Virus record (IMG/VR): IMGVR_UViG_3300045988_123515
Location: 15,468-79,467 of that record
Strand: one strand, 5' to 3'
Length of the DNA stretch: 64,000 bases
DNA from: a virus
Within the stretch, counting starts at the first letter, position 1; the number at the start of each line of letters is the position of its first letter. A model generated the notes under the pieces. It made no database searches. It was not told where the DNA came from and saw only the letters and a program-made list of their open reading frames with translations. A program made the translations under genes and the position numbers. Positions 1,009-51,636 of the stretch are shown piece by piece.

Positions 1009-1077
1009 CGGAATGTAGCTCAGGTGGGAGAGCGCACTACAAAAGTGAGGTCGCAAGTTCGAATCTTGCCTTTCCGA
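1009..1077 (+). tRNA. tRNA-like element with a truncated 3-bp anticodon stem (non-canonical, possibly not a decoding tRNA)
   Basis: Acceptor CGGAATG/CTTTCCG has 1 mismatch. The D arm is GCTC-AGGTGGGA-GAGC and the T arm is GCAAG-TTCGAAT-CTTGC. Only 19 nt lie between the D and T arms: a CAC/GTG stem, loop TACAAAA with A at position 33, then AGGTC. No CCA is encoded. Confidence 0.5.
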
Positions 1078-27860: not shown

Positions 27861-27920
27861 ATTTAACCGTTAATTTTGGTAAAACCAGTGGGATAGGGTA
27901 GCTCCCGAAAAGCGTAAACC

Positions 27921-27949
27921 TTGATACGCCTGTCCACTGTTTTTATAAA
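27921..27949 (+). promoter_or_regulatory. sigma-A-type promoter for the inserted three-gene unit
   Basis: TTGATA, a 17-nt spacer, then TATAAA. Confidence 0.55.
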
Positions 27950-28005
27950 TCAAGGATTCTGGCATATTACGGAGACGCCAACGACCAACAAGGAGGTTAT
28001 CTATT

Positions 28006-43345: not shown

Positions 43346-43515
43346 AATTAGTAGCAGAACTTCTTGTATTTACTGGGATGTTAACCTTGATATTCTTCGG
43401 ATTATGGTTTTTCACAGCCAAGGATTTGTTGGAAATATTTGTATTATCCAGTTTCGGGGCATTCTTTGTAGCAATCCCTGTAATGATATATTTGGAGGAA
43501 AAATTAAATGGGTGA
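43342..43515 (+). CDS. 57-aa two-TM protein
   Basis: ATGA overlap with the previous ORF. Sequence LLVFTGMLTLIFFGLWFF...FGAFFVAIPVMIY. Confidence 0.4.
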   Translation: MKLVAELLVFTGMLTLIFFGLWFFTAKDLLEIFVLSSFGAFFVAIPVMIYLEEKLNG

Positions 43516-44131
43516 GAACAAAATAGTAATTTCAGGTGTTGCATCAAGCGTAGCCTTTCATCATGAAGCATTCGGTATTTATTATTATCAAACATCTGTT
43601 GCAGTAACAAGAAGAAGTGGGAATATTGATTACCTTGACGTAGTTGCAAGTGATGAAACTTTCGGGGCTTATGATTACGAGGGAAAAAAAGTTGTGGTGC
43701 ATGGTGCAATTCGCTCAAGGATTGAGAAGAAACAGGCGAGAGAAGCATATGTTGCAGCGGACAATATAGAAATATTGGATGCCCCTGTTGCAGGCGGAGA
43801 TTTAAACAAGGTTGAGGTAGAGGGATTCATTTGTAACAAAAACATTGAGGGAAAATATACGCCGGTAACAAGAAGATATATTCTCAATCTGTTCTTGGCA
43901 ATTCACAGAAATAATAAGAGGAACGGAAGAGCAGATTATATTCCCTGCTGCATTTGGGGGGAAAACGCAAAAGAAATTGAGAAACAAGTTGAGCAAGGCT
44001 CAAAAATTAAAATAACAGGAATGCTCCTTTCCAGGGAGTTATACAAAAATGGCGAATTTGTAAGTGTATCTGAGATTTCAGTAAATTCAGTGGAGGTATT
44101 GGATGAAAACAATAGAGTTAAAAAGAATTGA
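43508..44131 (+). CDS. tandem OB-fold, SSB-like protein
   Basis: Two SSB-like halves, for example ADYIPCCIWGENAKEI...GSKIKITGMLLSRE. Confidence 0.45.
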   Translation: MGENKIVISGVASSVAFHHEAFGIYYYQTSVAVTRRSGNIDYLDVVASDETFGAYDYEGKKVVVHGAIRSRIEKKQAREAYVAADNIEILDAPVAGGDLNKVEVEGFICNKNIEGKYTPVTRRYILNLFLAIHRNNKRNGRADYIPCCIWGENAKEIEKQVEQGSKIKITGMLLSRELYKNGEFVSVSEISVNSVEVLDENNRVKKN

Positions 44132-46079
44132 GCTTGAGAACTATAAAAAGTATTCCAGCAAAACAGTTGAGTTATATAAAAAGACCAAGATTTCAGGACG
44201 CAATAAAGCAGGAAAATCCACGCTGATGGATGCGTATTTTGATACGCTAACAGGAAAATTAGCTGATGGTACATTGCCAAATGAAGTAAGAAAAAAAGAC
44301 AATGGAGTTGAAGTTGATAATCCAGTAGTCCGTGAGATTACGCTTTCTGTTGACGGTCAGGAAATGGTTATTCGAAAAGAAATCAAAAAAGGCAAGAACA
44401 ATAACACAACTTCCTATGAAATTGATGGTTTCAAAAGCAATAAAACGAAGTTTGAAGAGTTTTTAAAAGAGAATATTGCTGATCCGGATACGCTTCTGAT
44501 GTGTAGTAATGCCCGGGCATTTATCAATGAAATCTCAAAATCTACAGCTGATGCAAGAAAGACTTTATCAGATATTTCTGGATTTGATGAAAAGCAGATT
44601 GAAGGCTATGCAGATATTCAGAATATCACAAAAGGGCATCCGGTTGAGGAAGTTTTGAGGACATTGAGGGGTAATTTACGGAAGCAGGATAAAGCCGTTT
44701 CTAATAAGAAAGCAGTTATTAATAATGCAGAGGAAGAACTTTCAAAGATAAGTTCAGAATCTGTTGCAGATAAAGAATCCTTGCTGAAAGATAAAGCAAT
44801 TATTGATGAAAAAGAAGCTAAAATCGCCGATTTATCAAAAGCCTATGAAACAGCCCAGGGTGAAATCGAAAGTCTTAAAAAAGCAAGAAATGATTTTGAA
44901 AGAGCATCCGGTGAACAGCTTGGAAAGAAACATTCTGAAATTTTAAACATCGTTTCTGATAGAAAAATCAAGTTACAGGCTGACCAGAACGATTTAAGAA
45001 CTGCCAGAACAATCTTGTCCAACATGGAATCAGATGATGATTTAAAAAATAACGTTACAGATTTACAGGCACAGTATAAAGCAGTTTTTTCATCTGCATG
45101 GAATGATTCTGCATTAAAAGCTATCGAAGTAGAAGAATTTAATGAAGCAGAAGCCGTATGCCCGACTTGTGGACAGAAGTTGCTCCCAGAACAGGTTGAA
45201 AAATTAAAGGTAACATTTGAAGAAAACAAGCAGAAGAGAATCACTGAACAGTTTGAAGCAAAAGCTAAATTCGAACAGGACAAGAAACTCACTCTTGAAG
45301 AAATTACCAAAAGAGGAAATGAAGCCGTTAAACACAGAAAACAATGTTCAGAAGATCGCACAAAGCTGGAATCTGATATTTTAGAGATTGAGAAGCGTAT
45401 TGCAACTCTGACGGAAGAAATTCAGGCAAAAGAGAATGAATTGGAAGAAATTCCTACAAAAGTTGATTTATCTGCAAATGCTGAGTATCAGCAGATTCTG
45501 GCAGATATACAGAAGAAAGAAACTGAGCTTGCTGGGCTGAATAATTATTTTAAAGAGAGACAGGAAATCGCAAATAAGAAACTGGAACTTGCTAAAAAGA
45601 TTGCGGAAATCGAAACCACGGAGAAACTTATAAAAAAGCAGAAAGCAGACAAGCAGCAGTCAATTGCCAGTATGAAAGAAGAATTAAAAACATTAGGGCA
45701 GCAGTCAGCTGATATTCAAGGACAGATTGACAAGGTGATGAATTTTTCAATTCTGAAAAACAAGTTACTTGCCGAAAAGATTAATCCTTATTTCAAGCAT
45801 TTCCAGTTTAAATTCCTGGATTACACATCGGATAATGAACCGATTGAAACTTGCCGGATGATCTGCAATGGCATTGATTATATGAATGGCTTGAACCACT
45901 CTGATCAGATTTTGTGCAACATTGATTTAGTGGCAGGATTGCAGGAATTGAACGGATTAAAACTTCCAATTTGGGTTGATGATGTGGAATCCGTGAACGA
46001 AGAAAGATTGCCGGAATTAGAACAGCAGGTTATTTACTTGGAAGTATCAAAAGAAGAATTAAAAGTGGAGGAATTTTAA
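44103..46079 (+). CDS. Rad50/SbcC-like AAA ATPase with a CxxC zinc hook
   Basis: Walker A GRNKAGKST and a long coiled coil containing CPTCGQ. The C-terminus LPIWVDDVES is Walker B-like. Confidence 0.7.
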   Translation: MKTIELKRIELENYKKYSSKTVELYKKTKISGRNKAGKSTLMDAYFDTLTGKLADGTLPNEVRKKDNGVEVDNPVVREITLSVDGQEMVIRKEIKKGKNNNTTSYEIDGFKSNKTKFEEFLKENIADPDTLLMCSNARAFINEISKSTADARKTLSDISGFDEKQIEGYADIQNITKGHPVEEVLRTLRGNLRKQDKAVSNKKAVINNAEEELSKISSESVADKESLLKDKAIIDEKEAKIADLSKAYETAQGEIESLKKARNDFERASGEQLGKKHSEILNIVSDRKIKLQADQNDLRTARTILSNMESDDDLKNNVTDLQAQYKAVFSSAWNDSALKAIEVEEFNEAEAVCPTCGQKLLPEQVEKLKVTFEENKQKRITEQFEAKAKFEQDKKLTLEEITKRGNEAVKHRKQCSEDRTKLESDILEIEKRIATLTEEIQAKENELEEIPTKVDLSANAEYQQILADIQKKETELAGLNNYFKERQEIANKKLELAKKIAEIETTEKLIKKQKADKQQSIASMKEELKTLGQQSADIQGQIDKVMNFSILKNKLLAEKINPYFKHFQFKFLDYTSDNEPIETCRMICNGIDYMNGLNHSDQILCNIDLVAGLQELNGLKLPIWVDDVESVNEERLPELEQQVIYLEVSKEELKVEEF

Positions 46080-46313
46080 ATGGCTACTTATAACATTAAA
46101 GAAGCAATCAAAGCACAGGAACAGTATTGTGAAGAACATGAATTACCGCATTTTGCACCACGTAGCGGGGTTTGCTGGTCTTGTCATCAAAACATCTATT
46201 CAGAAAACGGATTCACAAGGTTTGGTGAGAAAACGAGTGGAATTTCAGTTGAGGGAGCAGGAAGTCATATGATTACCGGATGCCCGTTCTGTTACAGAAG
46301 CTATTGTGATTAA
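46080..46313 (+). CDS. small zinc-binding protein
   Basis: CWSC and CPFC pairs. Confidence 0.5.
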   Translation: MATYNIKEAIKAQEQYCEEHELPHFAPRSGVCWSCHQNIYSENGFTRFGEKTSGISVEGAGSHMITGCPFCYRSYCD

Positions 46314-46693
46314 GTAATTATTCTTTGCATGGCATTGGAATTGAATAGAACTGTATAGGCATGGAATGGTAACGCACAGTAACGATTAGTGGTGAAAAGG
46401 CAAAGTAAAGATTAGCAGAGGAAGGGCAAGGCAACGTAGCGACGGGAGATGAGCAGAAATGGAATTGAATAGCGCAGCACAGCCAAGGAACAGAACAGAA
46501 CAGATTGGCTTAGTAATGCATGGGCAGTGAATAGTACCGCAAAGTAACGGAAACGCATTGTAGAGTTGAGCCATGCGCGGCAGAGGAGTTGATAGGTGAT
46601 GCATGGCAATGTATTGGAAAAGCGTCGTCTGGCGCTGCGCCGGAGAAGCCTGGTTTAGAGCAGTATTAAAAAATAATAAAGGAGAAAATTGAG
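46314..46693 (+). other. 380-bp non-coding, C-poor, motif-rich region R1
   Basis: No + strand ORF. TGGAATTGAATAG occurs twice (46336, 46460). Recurrent GCATGG, ATTGG and GAATAG words are shared with R2. Confidence 0.6.
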
Positions 46694-47290
46694 ATGAAAG
46701 AAATGAAAGTTAGATTAACATTTTTAGAGGAAGTTTTGGGAACAGCAAATGCGGAAAAAGATATTCATGAGAAGTTTATTGCATCAAAAGCACCAGATGC
46801 ACCTTCCAGAGAACAGGAAGTTGAAGCTTTAGGAATTGAAGAAGTTATCGAAAAAGGTCGAACAGTATTTCCGAAAGATGAAAATGGCAATCCGTTCCTT
46901 TGGGACTACCAGATCAGGGGATTCTTTAAGTCAGCTGCACAGGCCGGTTCCTATATCGGAGGAGCAAAGAAACTTGCAGCTTATAAGAAAAAAATTGACT
47001 TACTGGTATTTGTAAACGAACGCAAAATTCCGTTTATTCTTCCAGAAGGTACATTGCTTTCTGACTGTCAAAGGCCACTAAGAGCGCAGACAGCACAGGG
47101 CGAACGAATTTCGTTGGCAGATAGTGAAACAGTACCAGCAGGATCAACAGTAGAATTTACAATCAGGGTACTTGATGATTCGCTCATGAAATATGTAATC
47201 GACTGGCTTGATTATGGAAGATACAACGGTATTGGTCAGTGGCGAAACTCAGGGAAAGGCCGATACACATGGACTGAAATCACCGAATAA
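46694..47290 (+). CDS. 198-aa protein of unknown function with a C-terminal glycine-rich loop
   Basis: Strong RBS. The C-terminal GIGQWRNSGKG resembles the GhGxxxxxGhG loop of RAMP proteins. This rests on a single motif only. Confidence 0.6.
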   Translation: MKEMKVRLTFLEEVLGTANAEKDIHEKFIASKAPDAPSREQEVEALGIEEVIEKGRTVFPKDENGNPFLWDYQIRGFFKSAAQAGSYIGGAKKLAAYKKKIDLLVFVNERKIPFILPEGTLLSDCQRPLRAQTAQGERISLADSETVPAGSTVEFTIRVLDDSLMKYVIDWLDYGRYNGIGQWRNSGKGRYTWTEITE

Positions 47291-47738
47291 GCTACGGCAT
47301 GGCTGAATGTAGCTATGACAGGCAAAGCAAAGGTGTGGAATCGCGGTGATTAGACATGCTATGGAGTAGATTGGATATGTAACACATTGAGTTGTAACGG
47401 AATTGCTTAGAATTGAGAGGCATGGGCAGAGCAAGGCATAGAGAAGTTATGGAATAGTAAAGAGCCGATACGTTTTGGCGAAGCATTGCAACGAATTGTT
47501 GTGTATTGGCAAAGTATGGAGAGGCACAGCAAGGCAGAGGTGTTGAGTAGTTAAGATGGGAACCGCTTTGGAACAGTTGTGCTAAGTGAAACGTTGTGAT
47601 GGATTGGCGTAGTTCAGCACTGTTTTGCTGTGATTTGTTTGGGAGTGGAGGAGTTTTGAAATGCAAAAGCGAAGTGTAGTGCTAAACAGAAATGCAAACA
47701 AAAAATGAGTTAATCAATATAAGAAAAGGAGAATTAAA
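47291..47738 (+). other. 448-bp non-coding, motif-rich region R2
   Basis: It shares with R1 the words GCATGGGCAG, GATTGGC(T/G)TAGT, TGTATTGG(A/C)AAAG and GGCAGAGGnGTTGA. Confidence 0.6.
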
Positions 47739-48842
47739 ATGGCGGAAAACACACAGGTAGCAAATTTTAACACACAGCTTTCCTACTACACAAATCGTTA
47801 TGTCGATTTAATGGAAAGAGATTTAACTTCAAGAGGAATGGAATTTGATTCTTACTCAAAAGATTGTGTAGTGGCAGCAATGGGATCTATTTTCCAGATG
47901 GTGCATGAGAGCGGCGTCAATTTTGACACAATCAACGGTTCTAATCTTAAATTTATTCTGAGCAAGGTAGCAGCATTGAAATTGAACGCAAACGCACAGC
48001 CAAGAGAATGCTATTTCCAGATTAGAAACGTAAATGTAGCAGCGAAAGGGCAGAAACCTCAGTGGGAAAAGAAAATTGAGTTTGCGATTGAAGGCGACGG
48101 AAACGATGCTCTTGTAAGTAGATATGGTGTCAATGTAGCTAAAGTATTTCCATATTGGAAAGTCAGAGAGGGTGATAAGTATATCCCACCGAGACATAAA
48201 GGTGTGGAGATTACACCGCCGGAATGGGAAGAATCTGGAATTGGAAAAGTAGTTCGCGTCGTATATCCAATTCAGTACAAAGATGGTCACGTTGAATACC
48301 TTTCTTGTGAAAGAGCAGATGTATTAAAAAATCTTGCAGCACATATCAAGAATAATCTTCAGAACGAAACATTTGGTATTTGTGCGGACAGATACAAAGC
48401 TACAGATGCACAGAAAGCTCAGATTGAAGCAAAGAAAAAAGAAGTTATGAAAAAGGTTGCTGATATTGGGGAACTGGAAGCAATCATTGATTGCGAGGAG
48501 TTAAGACCGTATATTTCACCGTCTTATTATGAAACACAATCCAGAGAATCTATGATTATCCGCAAAATGCGTAACAACATCATGAAGTCTATTCCTAAGA
48601 AATGGGATAATCCGGTGCAAGCTTATGAATATAACACGATGGACGCTACATACAGAGAAGTACAGGAAGAAATCGAGCAGAACGCTAACACCGAAGAATT
48701 TATTCCAGAGCCAATGGCAATCGAAGAACAGCCGAAACAGCCGACAGTTGCAGAAGTCGTTAAGAAAGCCGAGAAAGGACCAGTTCCAGCAGCAGTTGTC
48801 GAGCCAGAGATTCCGGATTTTATGAAGCAGGAGGAAATGTGA
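47739..48842 (+). CDS. RecT/Red-beta-like single-strand annealing protein
   Basis: QPRECYFQIRN...IEFAIEGDGNDALVSRYG...VREGDKY follows the RecT core pattern. Confidence 0.55.
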   Translation: MAENTQVANFNTQLSYYTNRYVDLMERDLTSRGMEFDSYSKDCVVAAMGSIFQMVHESGVNFDTINGSNLKFILSKVAALKLNANAQPRECYFQIRNVNVAAKGQKPQWEKKIEFAIEGDGNDALVSRYGVNVAKVFPYWKVREGDKYIPPRHKGVEITPPEWEESGIGKVVRVVYPIQYKDGHVEYLSCERADVLKNLAAHIKNNLQNETFGICADRYKATDAQKAQIEAKKKEVMKKVADIGELEAIIDCEELRPYISPSYYETQSRESMIIRKMRNNIMKSIPKKWDNPVQAYEYNTMDATYREVQEEIEQNANTEEFIPEPMAIEEQPKQPTVAEVVKKAEKGPVPAAVVEPEIPDFMKQEEM

Positions 48843-48843
48843 T

Positions 48844-49449
48844 ATGAACAATAAAGAAATTTTACAGAAAGCAAAGGAACTCGTTGAACTGTTGGAAAAA
48901 CAGGAAGAAGCTGGCAAGGTTGCACTGTCAACATTGAATCCTGGTGATGTGTTCCAAACCACCGGAAAACGCAAATACAAGGTTCTGGAACAGTATGGAG
49001 ATACAACGAAAATTATTTCGCTTGATCTGGTGAAAGAAAATGTGAGATTCGGAGACAACACGGATTACAACAAATCAAATGTAAAGAAATTGTGTGATAC
49101 AGAAATCTTAAAGGATTTTGAGAAAGAATTTGGTGCTGAAAGCATCGAAGAGCATACGGTAGATATTATTACCGCGGATGGACAGAAAGTAGGAAACACT
49201 GAATGTAAAATCCGTCCGATTACATTTGATGAAGCACGAGAATACACAGATATTACACCGAATAAGAAGTTGAACGACTGGTATTGGACACTATCACCGT
49301 GGTCAACGGAAGAACGTGGATGGAAGAACTGTTTAGCCGTTGTTTCCCCTTCGGGCGATTTCTTCAGGCTCAGTTACGTCATTGTAAACGGTGTTCGCCC
49401 AGTTTGTATCTTAAAATCTAATATCTTTGTATCTAAGGTGGAGGAATGA
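48844..49449 (+). CDS. DGR target protein 1 (C-terminal variable ligand-binding fold, DUF6273/CLec-like)
   Basis: WYWTLSPWS...AVVSPSGDFFRLSYVIVNGVRPVCIL. No signal peptide. Confidence 0.8.
   Translation: MNNKEILQKAKELVELLEKQEEAGKVALSTLNPGDVFQTTGKRKYKVLEQYGDTTKIISLDLVKENVRFGDNTDYNKSNVKKLCDTEILKDFEKEFGAESIEEHTVDIITADGQKVGNTECKIRPITFDEAREYTDITPNKKLNDWYWTLSPWSTEERGWKNCLAVVSPSGDFFRLSYVIVNGVRPVCILKSNIFVSKVEE
49337..49401 (+). repeat. VR1
   Basis: Versus TR it has 11 substitutions at TR adenines plus 1 at a T. Confidence 0.9.
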
Positions 49450-49451
49450 AA

Positions 49452-50051
49452 ATGAAGAAAAATCTGAAATATTTTGAAGATGAATTATCCAGATTAAGTA
49501 AAGAGTTTACGGAATTCAAGAAAAAGCACATCGGAAAGCCGGAAATCGGAAAAGCTATTGAACTTGCAGGTATGGAATGGCTGATTCTGGATAAGACAGA
49601 AAAAGGATATTTTGCCATTTTGAATGGATTTGATGGAAAAGAAAGAACATTTGATTCAGATTCAAATAACTGGATTTCGAGTAAACTGAGAAATGAGTTA
49701 AATACTCGTTTTCTTAAAAAAATTACGGACGAGTTGGGAGAAGATGCAGTTGTTGAGTTTGATCGTGATTTGCTTTCTTTGGACGGGCAGACAGAATATG
49801 GACATTGTAAAGATAAGATTTCGTTTTTGACGGTGGATGAATACCGGAAATACAGAAAACTTCTTCCAAATATGAGCGAATGGTGGTGGCTTATTACTCC
49901 ATGGAGTACACCAGCAAATAATTACAGTACAATAATTGCCGTTGTTTCCCCTTCGGGCATTATCTACGGGAGCGGTTACTACGGTGGGGACGGTGTTCGC
50001 CCAGTTTGTATCTTTTCTTCTTCAATCTTTGAATCAGGAAGTGATGATTGA
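49452..50051 (+). CDS. DGR target protein 2 (paralogue)
   Basis: WWWLITPWS...AVVSPSGIIYGSGYYGGDGVRPVCIF. The start was chosen 7 nt after GGAGG. Confidence 0.8.
   Translation: MKKNLKYFEDELSRLSKEFTEFKKKHIGKPEIGKAIELAGMEWLILDKTEKGYFAILNGFDGKERTFDSDSNNWISSKLRNELNTRFLKKITDELGEDAVVEFDRDLLSLDGQTEYGHCKDKISFLTVDEYRKYRKLLPNMSEWWWLITPWSTPANNYSTIIAVVSPSGIIYGSGYYGGDGVRPVCIFSSSIFESGSDD
49939..50003 (+). repeat. VR2
   Basis: Versus TR it has 12 substitutions at TR adenines plus the same T-to-G change. Confidence 0.9.
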
Positions 50052-50422
50052 TGGCGAATGAAGATTTAAAGGTAATAACAAAGGCCAAGCAACTTGCAAA
50101 GCATACATTAATAGTTACGAGTAATGCCAGACGCTACCCAAAGAAATACAGGTTTTCACTGGTAGATAAAATGCAGAACAAAGCTCTTGAAATATATGAG
50201 ATGCTTTTTGAAGCCAACAGAACCGACTTGAAAGATTATAAAAGAGAGCGCTTGGAACTCCAAACAAGAGCAATTACTCACTGCGATGAACTGATGTATT
50301 TTATAGAACTTTCATATGAATTAGGAATTATCAATTCTGGCGGAATGGAAGCCTGGTCGCAAATGGTTAAGGACATAAAGTACATGACTATTTCGTGGAG
50401 GACTAAAGACAGGAACAGATAA
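50051..50422 (+). CDS. avd: accessory variability determinant (Avd-like four-helix bundle)
   Basis: 123-aa basic helical protein between the targets and the TR. Sequence ITKAKQLAKHTLIVTSNARRYPKKYRFSLVDKMQ. Confidence 0.7.
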   Translation: MANEDLKVITKAKQLAKHTLIVTSNARRYPKKYRFSLVDKMQNKALEIYEMLFEANRTDLKDYKRERLELQTRAITHCDELMYFIELSYELGIINSGGMEAWSQMVKDIKYMTISWRTKDRNR

Positions 50423-50447
50423 TTTTACAGGTTGTGCACTGCGAATA

Positions 50448-50512
50448 CCGTTGTTTCCCCTTCGGGCAATATCAACAGTAACAATTACAACAATGAAAAC
50501 GGTGTTCGCCCA
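50448..50512 (+). repeat. DGR template repeat (TR)
   Basis: The core reads AAT ATC AAC AGT AAC AAT TAC AAC AAT GAA AAC, with 19 adenines in 33 nt. It is non-coding, and ORF 50432..50746 across it is spurious. Confidence 0.9.
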
Positions 50513-50571
50513 ACATGGATCACATGCAGACAGAGTAAGCATAAAGCTGAAATCAGTAAAGATACAAGCAA

Positions 50572-51636
50572 ATGCATAACCTTTCCGCAATGGATAAATA
50601 TAAAGGAACAAAGCAGATGGATAAAGAAATTGTTGCAAATTTTGAGAATTTATATTGTTCTTACAAAAAGGTTAAGAGCGGTAAGAAATTCAATTCAGGA
50701 ACTGCAAGGTTTTCTAATTTGTCTCTTGAAGGTATTCATCTTCTGAAGGAACAATTGGAAAGCCAAACGTATACCATAAATCCGTATAATAAATTTCAGA
50801 TTCATGAGCCGAAAGAACGAACGATAGAATCATGCGCATTTAAGGACAAAGTAGTGCAGAGATGCTTTTCTGATTACATTCTGACACCAAAACTTGAAAA
50901 TATCCTGATTAAATGGAACACTGCCGGACAGCAAGGAAAAGGACACCACATGGCAATGGACGGGCTAAGAAATCAGATGTTGGATTTCTACAAAATGAAT
51001 GGGTTGAATGGCTGGATTGTAAAATGTGACATTCATAAATATTTTTACAGCATAGATCATGAAATCACGAAAGATGTTTTGGATTATTACTTTAATGATG
51101 ATTTTACAGTCTGGTTGAACCATTTGTTTATTGACAGCACAGATAATCCAGGATTGCCATTAGGAAATCAAGTAAATCAGAAATACGCATTGTTACTGCT
51201 TCATTCGTTAGATCAAATGATAACGATTGAATTTGGAAATCCATATTACGGACGATACAACGATGATTTTTACACAGTGTGTAAAACGAAAGAAGATGCC
51301 AGAGAAATCCTTGAAGCAATCCGAATGATGGTCGAAAGCCTTGGACTGGAATTAAACCCAAAGTCGCAAATCGTACCATTTCGCATGGGCTTGTGTTATC
51401 TGGGCTTTCACCATTACGTGACTGATGAAGGAAAATATATCAGAAAATTGCGGGGTGATAAGAAAAGAAAAACTCAGAAAAAGGTTCGTAGATGGGTTCG
51501 TGCATTAAATGAAGAAAAGATGCCGATAGAAAAATTCAATGAAAAATATGAAGCATGCAAGAATCATATGCTTCATGGAAACTGTATCAAATTATGCCAT
51601 AGTATGGATTTGGAAATTGAAAGGAGAACGAAATGA
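50572..51636 (+). CDS. DGR reverse transcriptase
   Basis: HEPKERTIESCAFKDKVVQ, LPLGNQVNQ (DGR-type GxxxSQ-like) and YGRYNDDFY (YxDD box). The start is uncertain, with alternatives at 50590 and 50617. Confidence 0.85.
   Translation: MHNLSAMDKYKGTKQMDKEIVANFENLYCSYKKVKSGKKFNSGTARFSNLSLEGIHLLKEQLESQTYTINPYNKFQIHEPKERTIESCAFKDKVVQRCFSDYILTPKLENILIKWNTAGQQGKGHHMAMDGLRNQMLDFYKMNGLNGWIVKCDIHKYFYSIDHEITKDVLDYYFNDDFTVWLNHLFIDSTDNPGLPLGNQVNQKYALLLLHSLDQMITIEFGNPYYGRYNDDFYTVCKTKEDAREILEAIRMMVESLGLELNPKSQIVPFRMGLCYLGFHHYVTDEGKYIRKLRGDKKRKTQKKVRRWVRALNEEKMPIEKFNEKYEACKNHMLHGNCIKLCHSMDLEIERRTK

What the first reader, a model, noticed from the sequence alone, without database searches (positions are those of the whole stretch)
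46314..47738. Two long, C-poor, motif-sharing non-coding regions flanking a 198-aa protein with a RAMP-like glycine loop
Most gene junctions in this genome overlap or are shorter than 30 bp. Here there are gaps of 380 bp (46314-46693) and 448 bp (47291-47738) with stops in all three + frames. Cytosine is only about 14% in the first gap. The two gaps share a vocabulary of short words: TGGAATTGAATAG twice (46336, 46460), GCATGGGCAG (46518; 47420), GATTGGC[T/G]TAGT (46503; 47602), TGTATTGG[A/C]AAAG (46610; 47502) and GGCAGAGGnGTTGA (46579; 47533). In addition there are about six ATTGG and many (C/G/T)ATGGA/GAATAG words. The word order is only partly colinear, so this looks like a binding-site array rather than a simple duplication. 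The gaps bracket a well-expressed-looking gene (46694-47290) whose C-terminus GIGQWRNSGKG resembles the GhGxxxxxGhG loop of Cas5/6/7-type RAMP proteins. That resemblance rests on one short motif, so the evidence is weak. Possible explanations are iteron-type replication origins flanking an origin-binding protein, a pair of structured or protein-sponging ncRNAs, or substrates of an RNA-processing protein. I cannot assign either region to any known RNA family by eye.
Basis: partly seen in the sequence, partly recalled or inferred. Interest (0 to 1): 0.7.

Follow-up and report, generated by a model that had tools for sequence, protein, structure and literature searches.

The report
Phage VIPR locus with guide arrays
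The two odd non-coding stretches are long arrays of five-base repeats (a G every fifth base) flanking a small Cas7-like protein. Together they form a phage 'VIPR' RNA-guided DNA-recognition system, a kind first described in 2026 preprints, here in a version built from 31-base modules.

Summary
Both gaps are phase-perfect arrays with a G every 5 nt and one 6-nt step per 31 nt. There are 10 full modules in 46334-46643 and 12 in 47298-47669. They lie on the + strand only and occur nowhere else in the 64 kb.

The 198-aa protein has a Cas7/Csm3-like RAMP fold (Foldseek E about 1e-7). It keeps the thumb Arg and G-loop Trp that hold the second G of each repeat in the published SUSP1 Vipr structure.

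In 85 of 88 related loci the same gene adjoins such arrays, always on its own strand. Among phages whose protein is 93-96% identical, the periodic G is kept and the other four positions vary. Twenty of the window's 22 modules are unique.

This matches VIPR systems (bioRxiv 10.64898/2026.04.26.720920 and .720927): a phage RAMP polymerises on pentanucleotide-repeat vrRNAs and reads DNA non-contiguously to silence competing phages.

The locus differs from the characterised type II in four ways: an NNNNG rather than YNNGG repeat, 31-nt modules (six repeats plus one), no 3' tail, and no conserved accessory gene. Expression, targets and the reading rule could not be established here.

Verdict: a new member of a known, very recent kind.

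The parts
46323..46667 (+). Upstream pentanucleotide-repeat array (candidate vrRNA array). It has 10 complete 31-nt modules at 46334-46643, plus partial modules at both ends. Each module is 5 x (NNNNG) followed by NNNNG and one extra nucleotide.
   Evidence: Cyclic-HMM scan and parse with zero indels. G autocorrelation is 2.1 at lag 5 and 2.0 at lag 31. Fourier scan. No Rfam match.
46679..46684 (+). Ribosome-binding site (AAGGAG) of the vipr-like gene. The array runs to within about 25 nt of the start codon.
   Evidence: Read directly from the sequence. In most related loci the arrays also end just before the next gene's RBS.
46694..47290 (+). vipr-like gene: a 198-aa single-domain RAMP with a Cas7/Csm3-like fold.
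   Evidence: AF2 model, pLDDT 78.7. The top 50 Foldseek PDB hits are all Cas7-type RAMPs, E 1e-7 to 1e-5, TM 0.45-0.57. BFVD hit to a 'Cas system-associated RAMP superfamily protein', 55% identical. No model in Pfam, PHROG, NCBIfam or PADLOC.
47072..47077 (+). Codons for R127-P128 in the predicted thumb hairpin. R127 is the proposed counterpart of SUSP1 Vipr R138, which salt-bridges the second G of each repeat.
   Evidence: R127 is invariant in 50 diverse family representatives. The match of QRPL here to YRPI in SUSP1 is a by-eye motif match. The role of R138 comes from 10.64898/2026.04.26.720927. The correspondence is inferred.
47228..47260 (+). Codons for the glycine loop G179-G189 (GIGQWRNSGKG). 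W183 and R184 align with SUSP1 W178 and R179. Q182 replaces D177, the residue that contacts the first G.
   Evidence: hhalign alignments (the best has probability 55%, E 1.2e-4). W183 is invariant. SUSP1 residue numbering was checked.
47289..47697 (+). Downstream pentanucleotide-repeat array (candidate vrRNA array). It has 12 complete 31-nt modules at 47298-47669, plus partial modules at both ends.
   Evidence: The first module and the last one or two modules are conserved in close relatives, while the middle is replaced.
47298..47317 (+). Small hairpin (CAUGGCUG-AAUG-UAGCUAUG) inside the conserved first module of the downstream array. Its function is unknown; it could be a processing or boundary element.
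   Evidence: Predicted in both the MFE and the centroid fold. The sequence is conserved with G-U-compatible changes in relatives.
47615..47630 (+). Weak terminator-like hairpin inside the downstream array. It is no more than chance would give.
   Evidence: 1 found against 1.0 expected in shuffles.
44103..46079 (+). Context only: an SbcC/LmuB-like ATPase. With SSB (43508-44131) and RecT (47739-48842) it forms the recombination module in which the locus sits. It is not shown to be an accessory (vap) gene.
   Evidence: Pfam, PHROG and PADLOC hits. The order SSB, ATPase, [array], vipr, [array], RecT recurs in several clades, but no neighbour is universal.

Best explanation
This is a VIPR (Viral Interference Programmable Repeat) system carried by a gut phage.

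The two gaps are most likely transcribed with the surrounding + strand operon, giving RNA made of tandem pentanucleotide repeats (NNNNG). The 198-aa Cas7-like RAMP (Vipr) polymerises along this RNA, one protomer per repeat. Its thumb Arg (R127) and G-loop Trp (W183) grip the periodic G. The remaining bases, which vary between phages, are presented to read a DNA target non-contiguously. The resulting filament binds and silences genes of competing phages or prophages.

In this clade the repeats are grouped in 31-nt modules of six repeats plus one nucleotide. That equals one turn of the six-protomer-per-turn filament seen for SUSP1 Vipr.

Shown here: the fold, the arrays, their strand and phase, their link to the gene across lineages, and their hypervariability.

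Inferred by homology to the published SUSP1 and P. fulva systems: transcription, filament formation, DNA targeting and the biological role.
For: Protein:
- The fold is Cas7/Csm3-like. Weak sequence hits over the G-loop also go to RAMPs, namely Cas7 and Csm4.
- Three motifs are colinear with SUSP1 Vipr at residues that are functional there: GAK..K.ID at the helix-1 tip (K82, K88), RP in the thumb (R138), and G.G.WR..G in the G-loop (W178, R179).
- In SUSP1 the first G is contacted by H17 and D177. D177 aligns with Q182 here (hhalign), and H17 appears to correspond to T17 (my own by-eye alignment of the N-terminal strand). Accordingly only one G per repeat is conserved in these arrays.

Arrays:
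- G occupies the periodic positions in 77-96% of cases, with a period of 5 nt and a 31-nt superperiod. The arrays are on the + strand only and occur only in R1 and R2.

Comparative evidence:
- 85 of 88 loci encoding a homologue carry such arrays next to the gene and on its strand, across clades down to 53% identity.
- Periodic-G columns have entropy 0.13-0.17, against 0.39-0.72 for the four N positions.
- The gene is 89-94% identical to relatives at the DNA level, but the arrays are mosaic and 20 of 22 modules are unique.

Literature:
- VIPR is defined as a phage-encoded small RAMP flanked by long intergenic regions encoding pentanucleotide-repeat vrRNAs.
- Alternative NNNNG consensus repeats and tail-less 'staggered' arrays are mentioned.
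- The binary filament has six subunits per turn.
Against: - No expression data exist. No promoter or terminator is predicted above chance.
- The canonical YNNGG consensus is absent, as is the invariant 3' tail or pseudoknot of type II vrRNAs.
- No conserved accessory gene was found.
- The sequence link to SUSP1 Vipr is weak: hhalign probability 4-55%, and only 36 columns in the best case.
- No target was found under any tested reading rule, either in 0.76 Mb of related phage DNA or in a few exact-pattern scans of IMG/VR and GTDB genomes.
- All four N positions vary equally, so the two-base reading rule cannot be confirmed for this clade.
Confidence: 0.82

Rival explanations
1. The same protein-RNA pair, but not a guide. 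The long G-periodic RNA would act as a scaffold, decoy or sponge. For example, it might titrate a competitor's Vipr or a host Cas7-type complex, or regulate the flanking recombination genes in cis. The N positions would then drift neutrally.
For: - No target was found under any rule.
- All four N positions vary equally, with no sign of selection on particular positions.
- The arrays are continuous, lack discrete tails or promoters, and sit inside an operon.
Against: - Neutral drift does not explain mosaic, cassette-like turnover in which 20 of 22 modules are unique beside a 92-94% identical gene.
- The homologous SUSP1 and P. fulva systems are experimentally programmable guides.
- The target searches here had very low power: they required exact matches and used small databases.
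Confidence: 0.08
2. A DNA-level element. The arrays would be an origin, a recombination hot-spot or a protein-coating site for the adjacent SSB, ATPase and RecT module. A G every 5.17 bp would mark each half-turn of B-DNA (31 bp is about three turns).
For: - The locus lies in the replication/recombination module in several clades.
- 31/3 = 10.3 bp is close to the DNA helical repeat (arithmetic).
Against: - The element follows the RAMP gene, not SSB, RecT or the ATPase, all of which are absent from many loci.
- It is always on the RAMP gene's coding strand, in 85 of 85 loci with arrays.
- There is no conserved iteron sequence and no AT-rich unwinding element.
- The sequence is hypervariable between near-identical phages.
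- The partner protein has an RNA-binding RAMP fold.
Confidence: 0.04
3. Not a functional element. The gaps would be slippage-generated simple sequence, or mis-called coding DNA such as the antisense ORFs 47313-47666 (117 aa) and 46386-46604 (72 aa).
For: - Long antisense ORFs exist.
- Tandem short repeats can arise by replication slippage.
Against: - The antisense ORFs are low-complexity and not conserved. Only 2 of about 38 close relatives give a 37% match.
- Indels of 5, 10, 31 and 36 nt would break any reading frame.
- The phase is maintained over hundreds of nucleotides in more than 80 loci while the sequence diverges. That pattern is selection, not slippage.
Confidence: 0.01

Closest known systems
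VIPR type II systems (Escherichia phage SUSP1, Pseudomonas fulva prophage); bioRxiv 10.64898/2026.04.26.720920 and 10.64898/2026.04.26.720927
   Same: - Phage-encoded.
- A protein of about 20 kDa with a single RAMP domain, a thumb and a G-loop.
- A gene flanked upstream and downstream by long intergenic regions on the same strand, made of tandem 5-nt repeats with conserved G and hypervariable other positions.
- Conserved counterparts of the G2-binding Arg and Trp and of the lysines that clamp the non-target strand.
- The six-repeat grouping equals the six-subunit turn of the binary filament.
   Different: - The repeat is NNNNG (the first base after G is never G) rather than YNNGG. The residues that contact the first G are replaced.
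- The arrays are continuous, 345 and 409 nt here and up to about 1.7 kb in relatives. SUSP1 instead has discrete vrRNAs of about 100 nt with 9-16 repeats.
- One extra nucleotide follows every six repeats, giving 31-nt modules.
- There is no invariant 3' tail or pseudoknot and no promoter per vrRNA.
- There is no vap1-like neighbour.
- Profile-level sequence similarity is confined to the G-loop.
[quoted passage not shown]
   Same: A single conserved G per pentamer, and back-to-back units without tails whose registers are offset by 1 nt. This is what a 6-nt step every 31 nt produces.
   Different: The match could not be verified. The figures and supplementary data are not available as text. The preprint's main text mentions neither a 31-nt module nor this gut-phage family. 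Which of the seven types this locus belongs to is unknown.
Class 1 CRISPR-Cas backbone subunits (Csm3 of type III-A, Cas7 of type VII, Cas7-11)
   Same: These are the best structural matches: RRM core, thumb, G-loop, and polymerisation along a guide RNA with periodic base displacement.
   Different: There is no CRISPR repeat-spacer array, no other cas genes, and no Cas6, Cas5, Cas10 or Cas11. The periodicity is 5 nt rather than 6 nt. The system is encoded by a phage. No Cas HMM reaches significance.
Repeat-motif protein-binding RNAs and iteron origins (for example TRAP-binding (G/U)AG repeats, CsrB GGA repeats, plasmid or phage iterons); comparison from general knowledge
   Same: They are arrays of short, regularly spaced protein-binding units in non-coding sequence.
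   Different: Here the period is exact (5 nt, with a 31-nt superperiod) over hundreds of nucleotides, only one base is fixed, the partner is a RAMP, and the intervening bases turn over like CRISPR spacers.

Membership tests
VIPR system | A small (about 20 kDa) single-RRM RAMP protein with a thumb and a glycine-rich loop, outside any CRISPR-Cas context | tested here: met
   198 aa. The AF2 model has a beta-alpha-beta-beta-alpha-beta core with a long hairpin at residues 123-147 and the G-loop at 179-189. All top Foldseek PDB hits are Cas7-type RAMPs. There are no cas genes or CRISPR repeats nearby.
VIPR system | Tandem pentanucleotide repeats with conserved G and hypervariable other positions, in long intergenic regions flanking the gene on its own strand | tested here: met
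   The period is 5 nt, G occupies the periodic positions in 77-96% of cases, the N positions are variable, and the arrays are on the + strand only.
VIPR system | Canonical YNNGG (GGY/NN) repeat consensus | tested here: not met
   The consensus is HNNNG. The position before the G is G in only about 25% of repeats, and the position after it is A, C or T. The preprint itself lists NNNNG as an alternative consensus, so this excludes type II but not VIPR as a whole.
VIPR system | Discrete vrRNAs, each capped by an invariant structured 3' tail (a pseudoknot in the SUSP1 clade) | tested here: not met
   The arrays run to the next gene's RBS with no conserved 3' element. There is no significant global structure and no Rfam ribozyme.
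VIPR system | Placement of the protein within the Vipr clade, or detectable homology to a published Vipr | tested here: inconclusive
   hhalign against the SUSP1-type profile gives E 0.0099, 0.005 and 1.2e-4, with probability 4-55%. Motifs at functional residues are colinear. The published reference sequences other than SUSP1 were not available.
VIPR system | Conservation of the residues that hold the repeat's G (SUSP1 R138 in the thumb, W178 in the G-loop) | tested here: met
   R127 and W183 are invariant in 50 diverse representatives. W183 aligns to W178 in hhalign; R127 is matched to R138 by eye through the RP motif. The correspondence rests on alignment, not on a solved structure.
VIPR system | An associated accessory gene (vap1-6) | tested here: not met
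   No neighbour is conserved across clades. SSB, an SbcC-like ATPase and RecT are frequent but not universal.
VIPR system | Predominantly encoded by phages or prophages | tested here: met
   The window carries phage recombination genes and a DGR. There are 110 confirmed hits in IMG/VR, 80 of them fetched as loci, and 4 uncultured gut phage records.
VIPR system | vrRNAs are expressed and co-purify with the Vipr protein | not testable with these tools
   This needs sRNA-seq and pull-down experiments.
VIPR system | Non-contiguous recognition of DNA targets (NN read, 1 nt skipped) in competing mobile elements | tested here: inconclusive
   Twenty-two reading rules were tried on 0.76 Mb of related DNA, and real guides scored the same as decoys. 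Five exact-pattern scans and one BLAST search found nothing. These searches had low power.
CRISPR-Cas (class 1) | A repeat-spacer array with conserved direct repeats, plus a multi-gene cas operon | tested here: not met
   There are no conserved direct repeats and no other cas genes.
Iteron-type replication origin | Several copies of a conserved repeat of about 17-22 bp, usually with an AT-rich region, conserved among related replicons | tested here: not met
   Only degenerate families at 60-77% identity were found. The sequence is hypervariable among relatives. The asymmetry is strictly confined to one strand.

The most novel reading that the evidence does not exclude
This very large gut-phage clade may be a mechanistically distinct VIPR variant. 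It comprises 1,975 clusters at 50% identity.

In this reading only one base per repeat is sequestered by the protein. Up to four bases per pentamer would then be available for pairing. Guides would be organised as 31-nt, six-protomer, single-turn modules arrayed without tails.

That would be an intermediate between the '2 read / 3 hidden' code of type II VIPR and the '5 read / 1 flipped' geometry of CRISPR Cas7 backbones. The modules would turn over like spacers.

The evidence here (equal variability of all four N positions, loss of the first-G contacts, the exact 31-nt phase) allows this reading but does not demonstrate it.
Probability: 0.2. Interest if true: 0.8.

Novelty: new member of a known kind. 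Interest (0 to 1): 0.6.

Why it matters
VIPR is a newly reported mode of RNA-guided DNA recognition, proposed to be ancestral to CRISPR. This locus shows that it is abundant in human-gut phages, where it sits in the recombination module with very long, rapidly turning-over arrays.

The 31-nt module (six repeats plus one nucleotide) and the single conserved G give concrete hypotheses that can be tested. They bear on how filament geometry sets guide length and on how the reading code evolved.

For annotation, the result explains a recurrent class of 'empty' intergenic regions and spurious antisense ORFs in gut phage genomes. It also shows that no current HMM library recognises the protein.

Tried and rejected
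- **Rfam.** Neither the gathering-threshold search nor a permissive search found anything in R1 or R2.
- **Alternative genetic code.** Rejected, because all three stop codons occur in every + frame.
- **Intron or homing-endonuclease layout.** Rejected. The flanking genes are complete, with their own stop codon and RBS.
- **Link to the neighbouring reverse transcriptase.** Rejected. The RT belongs to a separate DGR with its own TR and VRs, and homologous loci lack an RT.
- **6-nt (Cas7-like) periodicity.** Not present. The period is 5 nt, with a 31-nt superperiod.
- **Global RNA structure.** None: z-scores are +1.5 and -1.4.
- **Promoters and terminators.** Not above chance.
- **Antisense ORFs as genes.** Not conserved.
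- **Curated protein libraries (Pfam, PHROGs, NCBIfam, PADLOC).** No model hits, apart from a chance-level Cas6 hit at E 0.028.
- **Inferring which repeat positions are read.**
  - Entropy and mismatch spectra are flat across the four N positions.
  - A comparison with codon composition only weakly favours positions 2-3 as codon positions 1-2 (KL 0.14 against 0.18-0.59).
- **Target search.**
  - Twenty-two reading rules were run against the window plus 88 loci, and real guides scored the same as decoys.
  - Exact gapped patterns were scanned four times in IMG/VR and once in GTDB genomes, and the arrays with the periodic Gs removed were searched by BLAST against the phage collection. All were negative.
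- **Supplementary data of the VIPR preprint.** Not held as text, so the VIPR type could not be assigned.
Full report
**1. The observation**

- 46314-46693 (R1) and 47291-47738 (R2) have stop codons in all three + frames.
- They bracket a 198-aa ORF (46694-47290) with a good RBS.
- Every quoted word is at the quoted position.

Cytosine is 13.9% in R1 and 11.2% in R2. The whole window is already C-poor at 16.1%, so G enrichment (31% against 22%) and GC skew are the larger anomaly. Rfam finds nothing in either region at either threshold.

**2. What the regions are**

The shared words are a symptom of something else.
- The G-G autocorrelation peaks at lags 5, 10, 15/16, 21, 26 and 31, then at 36 through to 62. 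At lags 31 and 62 it is as sharp as at lag 5.
- This means a G every five bases, with one six-base step per 31 bases.
- A cyclic profile trained on these regions has G at 77-96% of the periodic positions. The base after the G is almost never G. The other positions are weakly A-rich.

Scanned with a background state over both strands of the whole 64 kb, this profile finds exactly two arrays, 46323-46667 and 47289-47697, both on the + strand. A model-free Fourier scan gives the same answer.

Parsed, R1 holds 10 complete 31-nt modules (46334-46643) and R2 holds 12 (47298-47669), without a single indel. Each module is five NNNNG units followed by NNNNG and one extra base.

The periodicity is about 10 sd (lag 5) and 8 sd (lag 31) above Markov shuffles. 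The word sharing between R1 and R2 is reproduced by a shuffle that merely keeps each base in its phase class. The 'vocabulary' is therefore explained by the phase constraint. It is not a set of specific binding words.

**3. The protein**

No Pfam, PHROG, NCBIfam or PADLOC model recognises the protein, but it is far from an orphan.
- More than 7,900 clusters at 90% identity match it.
- 1,975 clusters at 50% identity match its profile.

A profile search of PDB sequences gives only weak hits, and they are all RAMPs (type VII Cas7 and Csm4), falling over the C-terminal glycine loop.

An AlphaFold model (pLDDT 78.7) matches Csm3 of type III-A, Cas7 of type VII and Cas7-11. E-values run from 1e-7 to 1e-5, the probability is 1.0 and the TM-score is about 0.45-0.57. 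The top 50 hits are all of this kind. In BFVD, a 55%-identical member of the family is already labelled 'Cas system-associated RAMP superfamily protein'.

**4. Comparative evidence**

I fetched 88 loci encoding homologues, at 53-97% identity.
- In 85 of them the profile finds arrays. They are always on the gene's own strand, usually immediately upstream and/or downstream of it, and 100 to about 1,700 nt long.
- In the L074-L084 clade a second array lies about 1.6-2 kb upstream, with three other ORFs between it and the gene.
- The 31-nt superperiod holds in every clade.
- The only exceptions are three copies of one chromosomal lineage (L006-L008).
- No neighbouring gene is universal. The order SSB, SbcC/LmuB-like ATPase, [array], gene, [array], RecT recurs in several clades.
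- In most loci the arrays run to within 10-40 nt of the next start codon, with no shared 3' element.

Among 38 phages whose protein is 93-96% identical to the window's:
- The periodic-G columns are nearly invariant (entropy 0.13-0.17), while all four N positions vary (0.39-0.72).
- Indels of 5, 10, 31 or 36 nt are seen.
- The arrays are mosaics of shared and private modules. Only 2 of the window's 22 modules recur in any relative.
- The gene itself is 89-94% identical at the DNA level.

This is how guide or spacer cassettes behave. It is not how an origin, a structured RNA or junk sequence behaves.

**5. What is known**

A full-text search led to two 2026 preprints from one laboratory.

The preprints report that VIPR systems have these properties:
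- A phage-encoded RAMP of about 20 kDa (Vipr), flanked by long intergenic regions.
- Those regions encode vrRNAs made of 9-16 tandem pentanucleotide repeats (YNNGG) plus a structured 3' tail.
- One protomer binds per repeat. The thumb and G-loop sequester GGY.
- The NN dinucleotides pair with DNA, skipping every third target base.
- The filament silences competing phages and satellites.
- The binary filament has six protomers per turn.

Seven types are reported. The methods mention alternative NNNGG, YNNNG and NNNNG repeats, 'staggered arrays' whose vrRNAs abut with a 1-nt offset, and types with different accessory (vap) genes.

I retrieved SUSP1 (KT454805.2). Its locus layout, and the residue numbers quoted in the structural paper, match the record. 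My period-5 scan flags that locus as a positive control.

**6. Mapping onto this locus**

Profile-profile comparison with the SUSP1-type family is weak. The best result is probability 55%, E 1.2e-4, over 36 columns spanning the G-loop. The preprint itself notes that RAMPs share little sequence similarity.

Even so, three motifs line up in order at residues that are functional in SUSP1:

| SUSP1 motif and residues | Role in SUSP1 | Counterpart here |
|---|---|---|
| GAKLNKLGKVID (K82, K88) | Clamp on the non-target strand | GAKKLAAYKKKID |
| YR138P | Thumb Arg on the second G | QR127P |
| GVGD177W178R179 | G-loop | GIGQ182W183R184 |

R127 and W183 are invariant in 50 diverse representatives.

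The two residues that read the first G in SUSP1 are not kept. D177 aligns with Q182 in hhalign, and H17 appears to correspond to T17 in my own alignment of the N-terminal strand. The purine-excluding pocket residues E71 and M72 align with A82 and Q83. This fits the repeat seen here: only the second G is conserved, the preceding base is free, and the following base may be A, C or T. These correspondences rest on alignment and are inferences.

**7. Most likely mechanism**

The arrays are transcribed with the + strand operon. No separate promoters or terminators are predicted, and the RNA is predicted to be essentially unstructured.

Vipr-like protomers coat the RNA, one per pentamer, each holding the periodic G. 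The exposed variable bases recognise DNA of rival phages or prophages. Binding then represses those elements.

The 31-nt module equals six protomers plus one nucleotide, which is one turn of a six-per-turn filament. I cannot tell which of three things the extra base marks:
- a boundary between independent six-repeat guides;
- strain relief in a long filament;
- the 'staggered' architecture of the preprint.

**8. Differences from the characterised systems**

- The repeat is NNNNG rather than YNNGG.
- The arrays are continuous, with 10-12 modules here and up to about 55 elsewhere, rather than discrete RNAs of about 100 nt.
- There is an exact 31-nt module.
- There is no 3' tail.
- There is no conserved accessory gene.
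- All four variable positions evolve alike. The two-base, one-skip code therefore cannot be assumed for this clade.

**9. What failed**

I could not find targets.
- Twenty-two reading rules applied to 0.76 Mb of related phage DNA gave real guides the same scores as decoys.
- Four exact gapped-pattern scans of IMG/VR, one of GTDB genomes, and a BLAST of the arrays with the periodic Gs removed against the phage collection were all empty.
- These searches need perfect matches or use small databases, so the negative result says little.
- Codon-composition comparison only weakly favours positions 2-3 as the read pair.
- The preprint's supplementary data are not available as text, so I could not assign a VIPR type.

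**10. Rivals**

- A decoy or scaffold RNA bound by the same protein is not excluded (about 8%).
- A DNA-level role in replication or recombination is unlikely (about 4%). The element tracks the RAMP gene and its strand, and it has no conserved repeat sequence.
- Junk sequence or antisense coding is excluded. The phase is conserved, indels would break any reading frame, and the antisense ORFs are not conserved.

**11. Verdict**

It is best filed as a new member of the recently described VIPR kind. It carries variant traits that are worth experimental follow-up: a single conserved G, 31-nt modules, no tail and no vap gene.

Noticed in passing
window 48844-51636: A complete diversity-generating retroelement lies just downstream.
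- The reverse transcriptase is at 50572-51636.
- The template repeat is at 50447-50544.
- There are two variable repeats, at 49336-49433 and 49938-50035, in the 3' ends of two tandem DUF6273 genes.
- 12 of 13 and 13 of 14 TR-VR mismatches fall on TR adenines.
- The 124-aa ORF at 50048-50422 is probably the Avd accessory protein.
- The DGR is not part of the VIPR locus; homologous loci lack it.
   Followed up: yes
window 27886-27955: A match to the Rfam int-alpA RNA (RF02996), 51.4 bits against a gathering score of 35.8. It suggests an integrase or excisionase region, and so a temperate phage.
   Followed up: no
window 1009-1077: A tRNA gene that ARAGORN calls tRNA-Cys with anticodon ACA, rather than the usual GCA. 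Rfam scores it at 47 bits as a tRNA.
   Followed up: no
window 47313-47666 (-) and 46386-46604 (-): Long antisense ORFs (117 and 72 aa) lie inside the arrays. They exist because the minus strand is G-poor. They are Leu/Ser/Pro-rich and are not conserved in relatives. Gene callers could annotate them as hypothetical proteins.
   Followed up: yes
window 43508-48842: The VIPR locus is inserted in a recombination module: SSB, an SbcC/LmuB-like ATPase (PADLOC LmuB 9.8e-14), a 77-aa Cys-rich protein (phrog_20040), then vipr and its arrays, then RecT. The same order recurs in several distant clades. The ATPase could be an accessory factor, but this was not tested.
   Followed up: partly
L006-L008 (P0116 lineage, a contig of about 1 Mb): A 229-aa homologue with a C-terminal extension sits in an apparently chromosomal context (RecJ and SecY nearby). 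No pentanucleotide array is detectable within 5 kb on either side. It may be an orphan or repurposed Vipr.
   Followed up: partly
L085 3411-5108; L087 4601-6406; L074-L084 about 1.6-2 kb upstream of the gene: Some relatives carry far larger or split arrays. L085 has about 1.7 kb of nearly continuous repeats. L087 has four arrays. One clade has a second array separated from vipr by three other ORFs.
   Followed up: no
SUSP1 record KT454805.2 (L089), residue 175 of the Vipr protein: The structural preprint names T175 in the pyrimidine pocket, but this GenBank record has V175. All twelve other named residues match.
   Followed up: no
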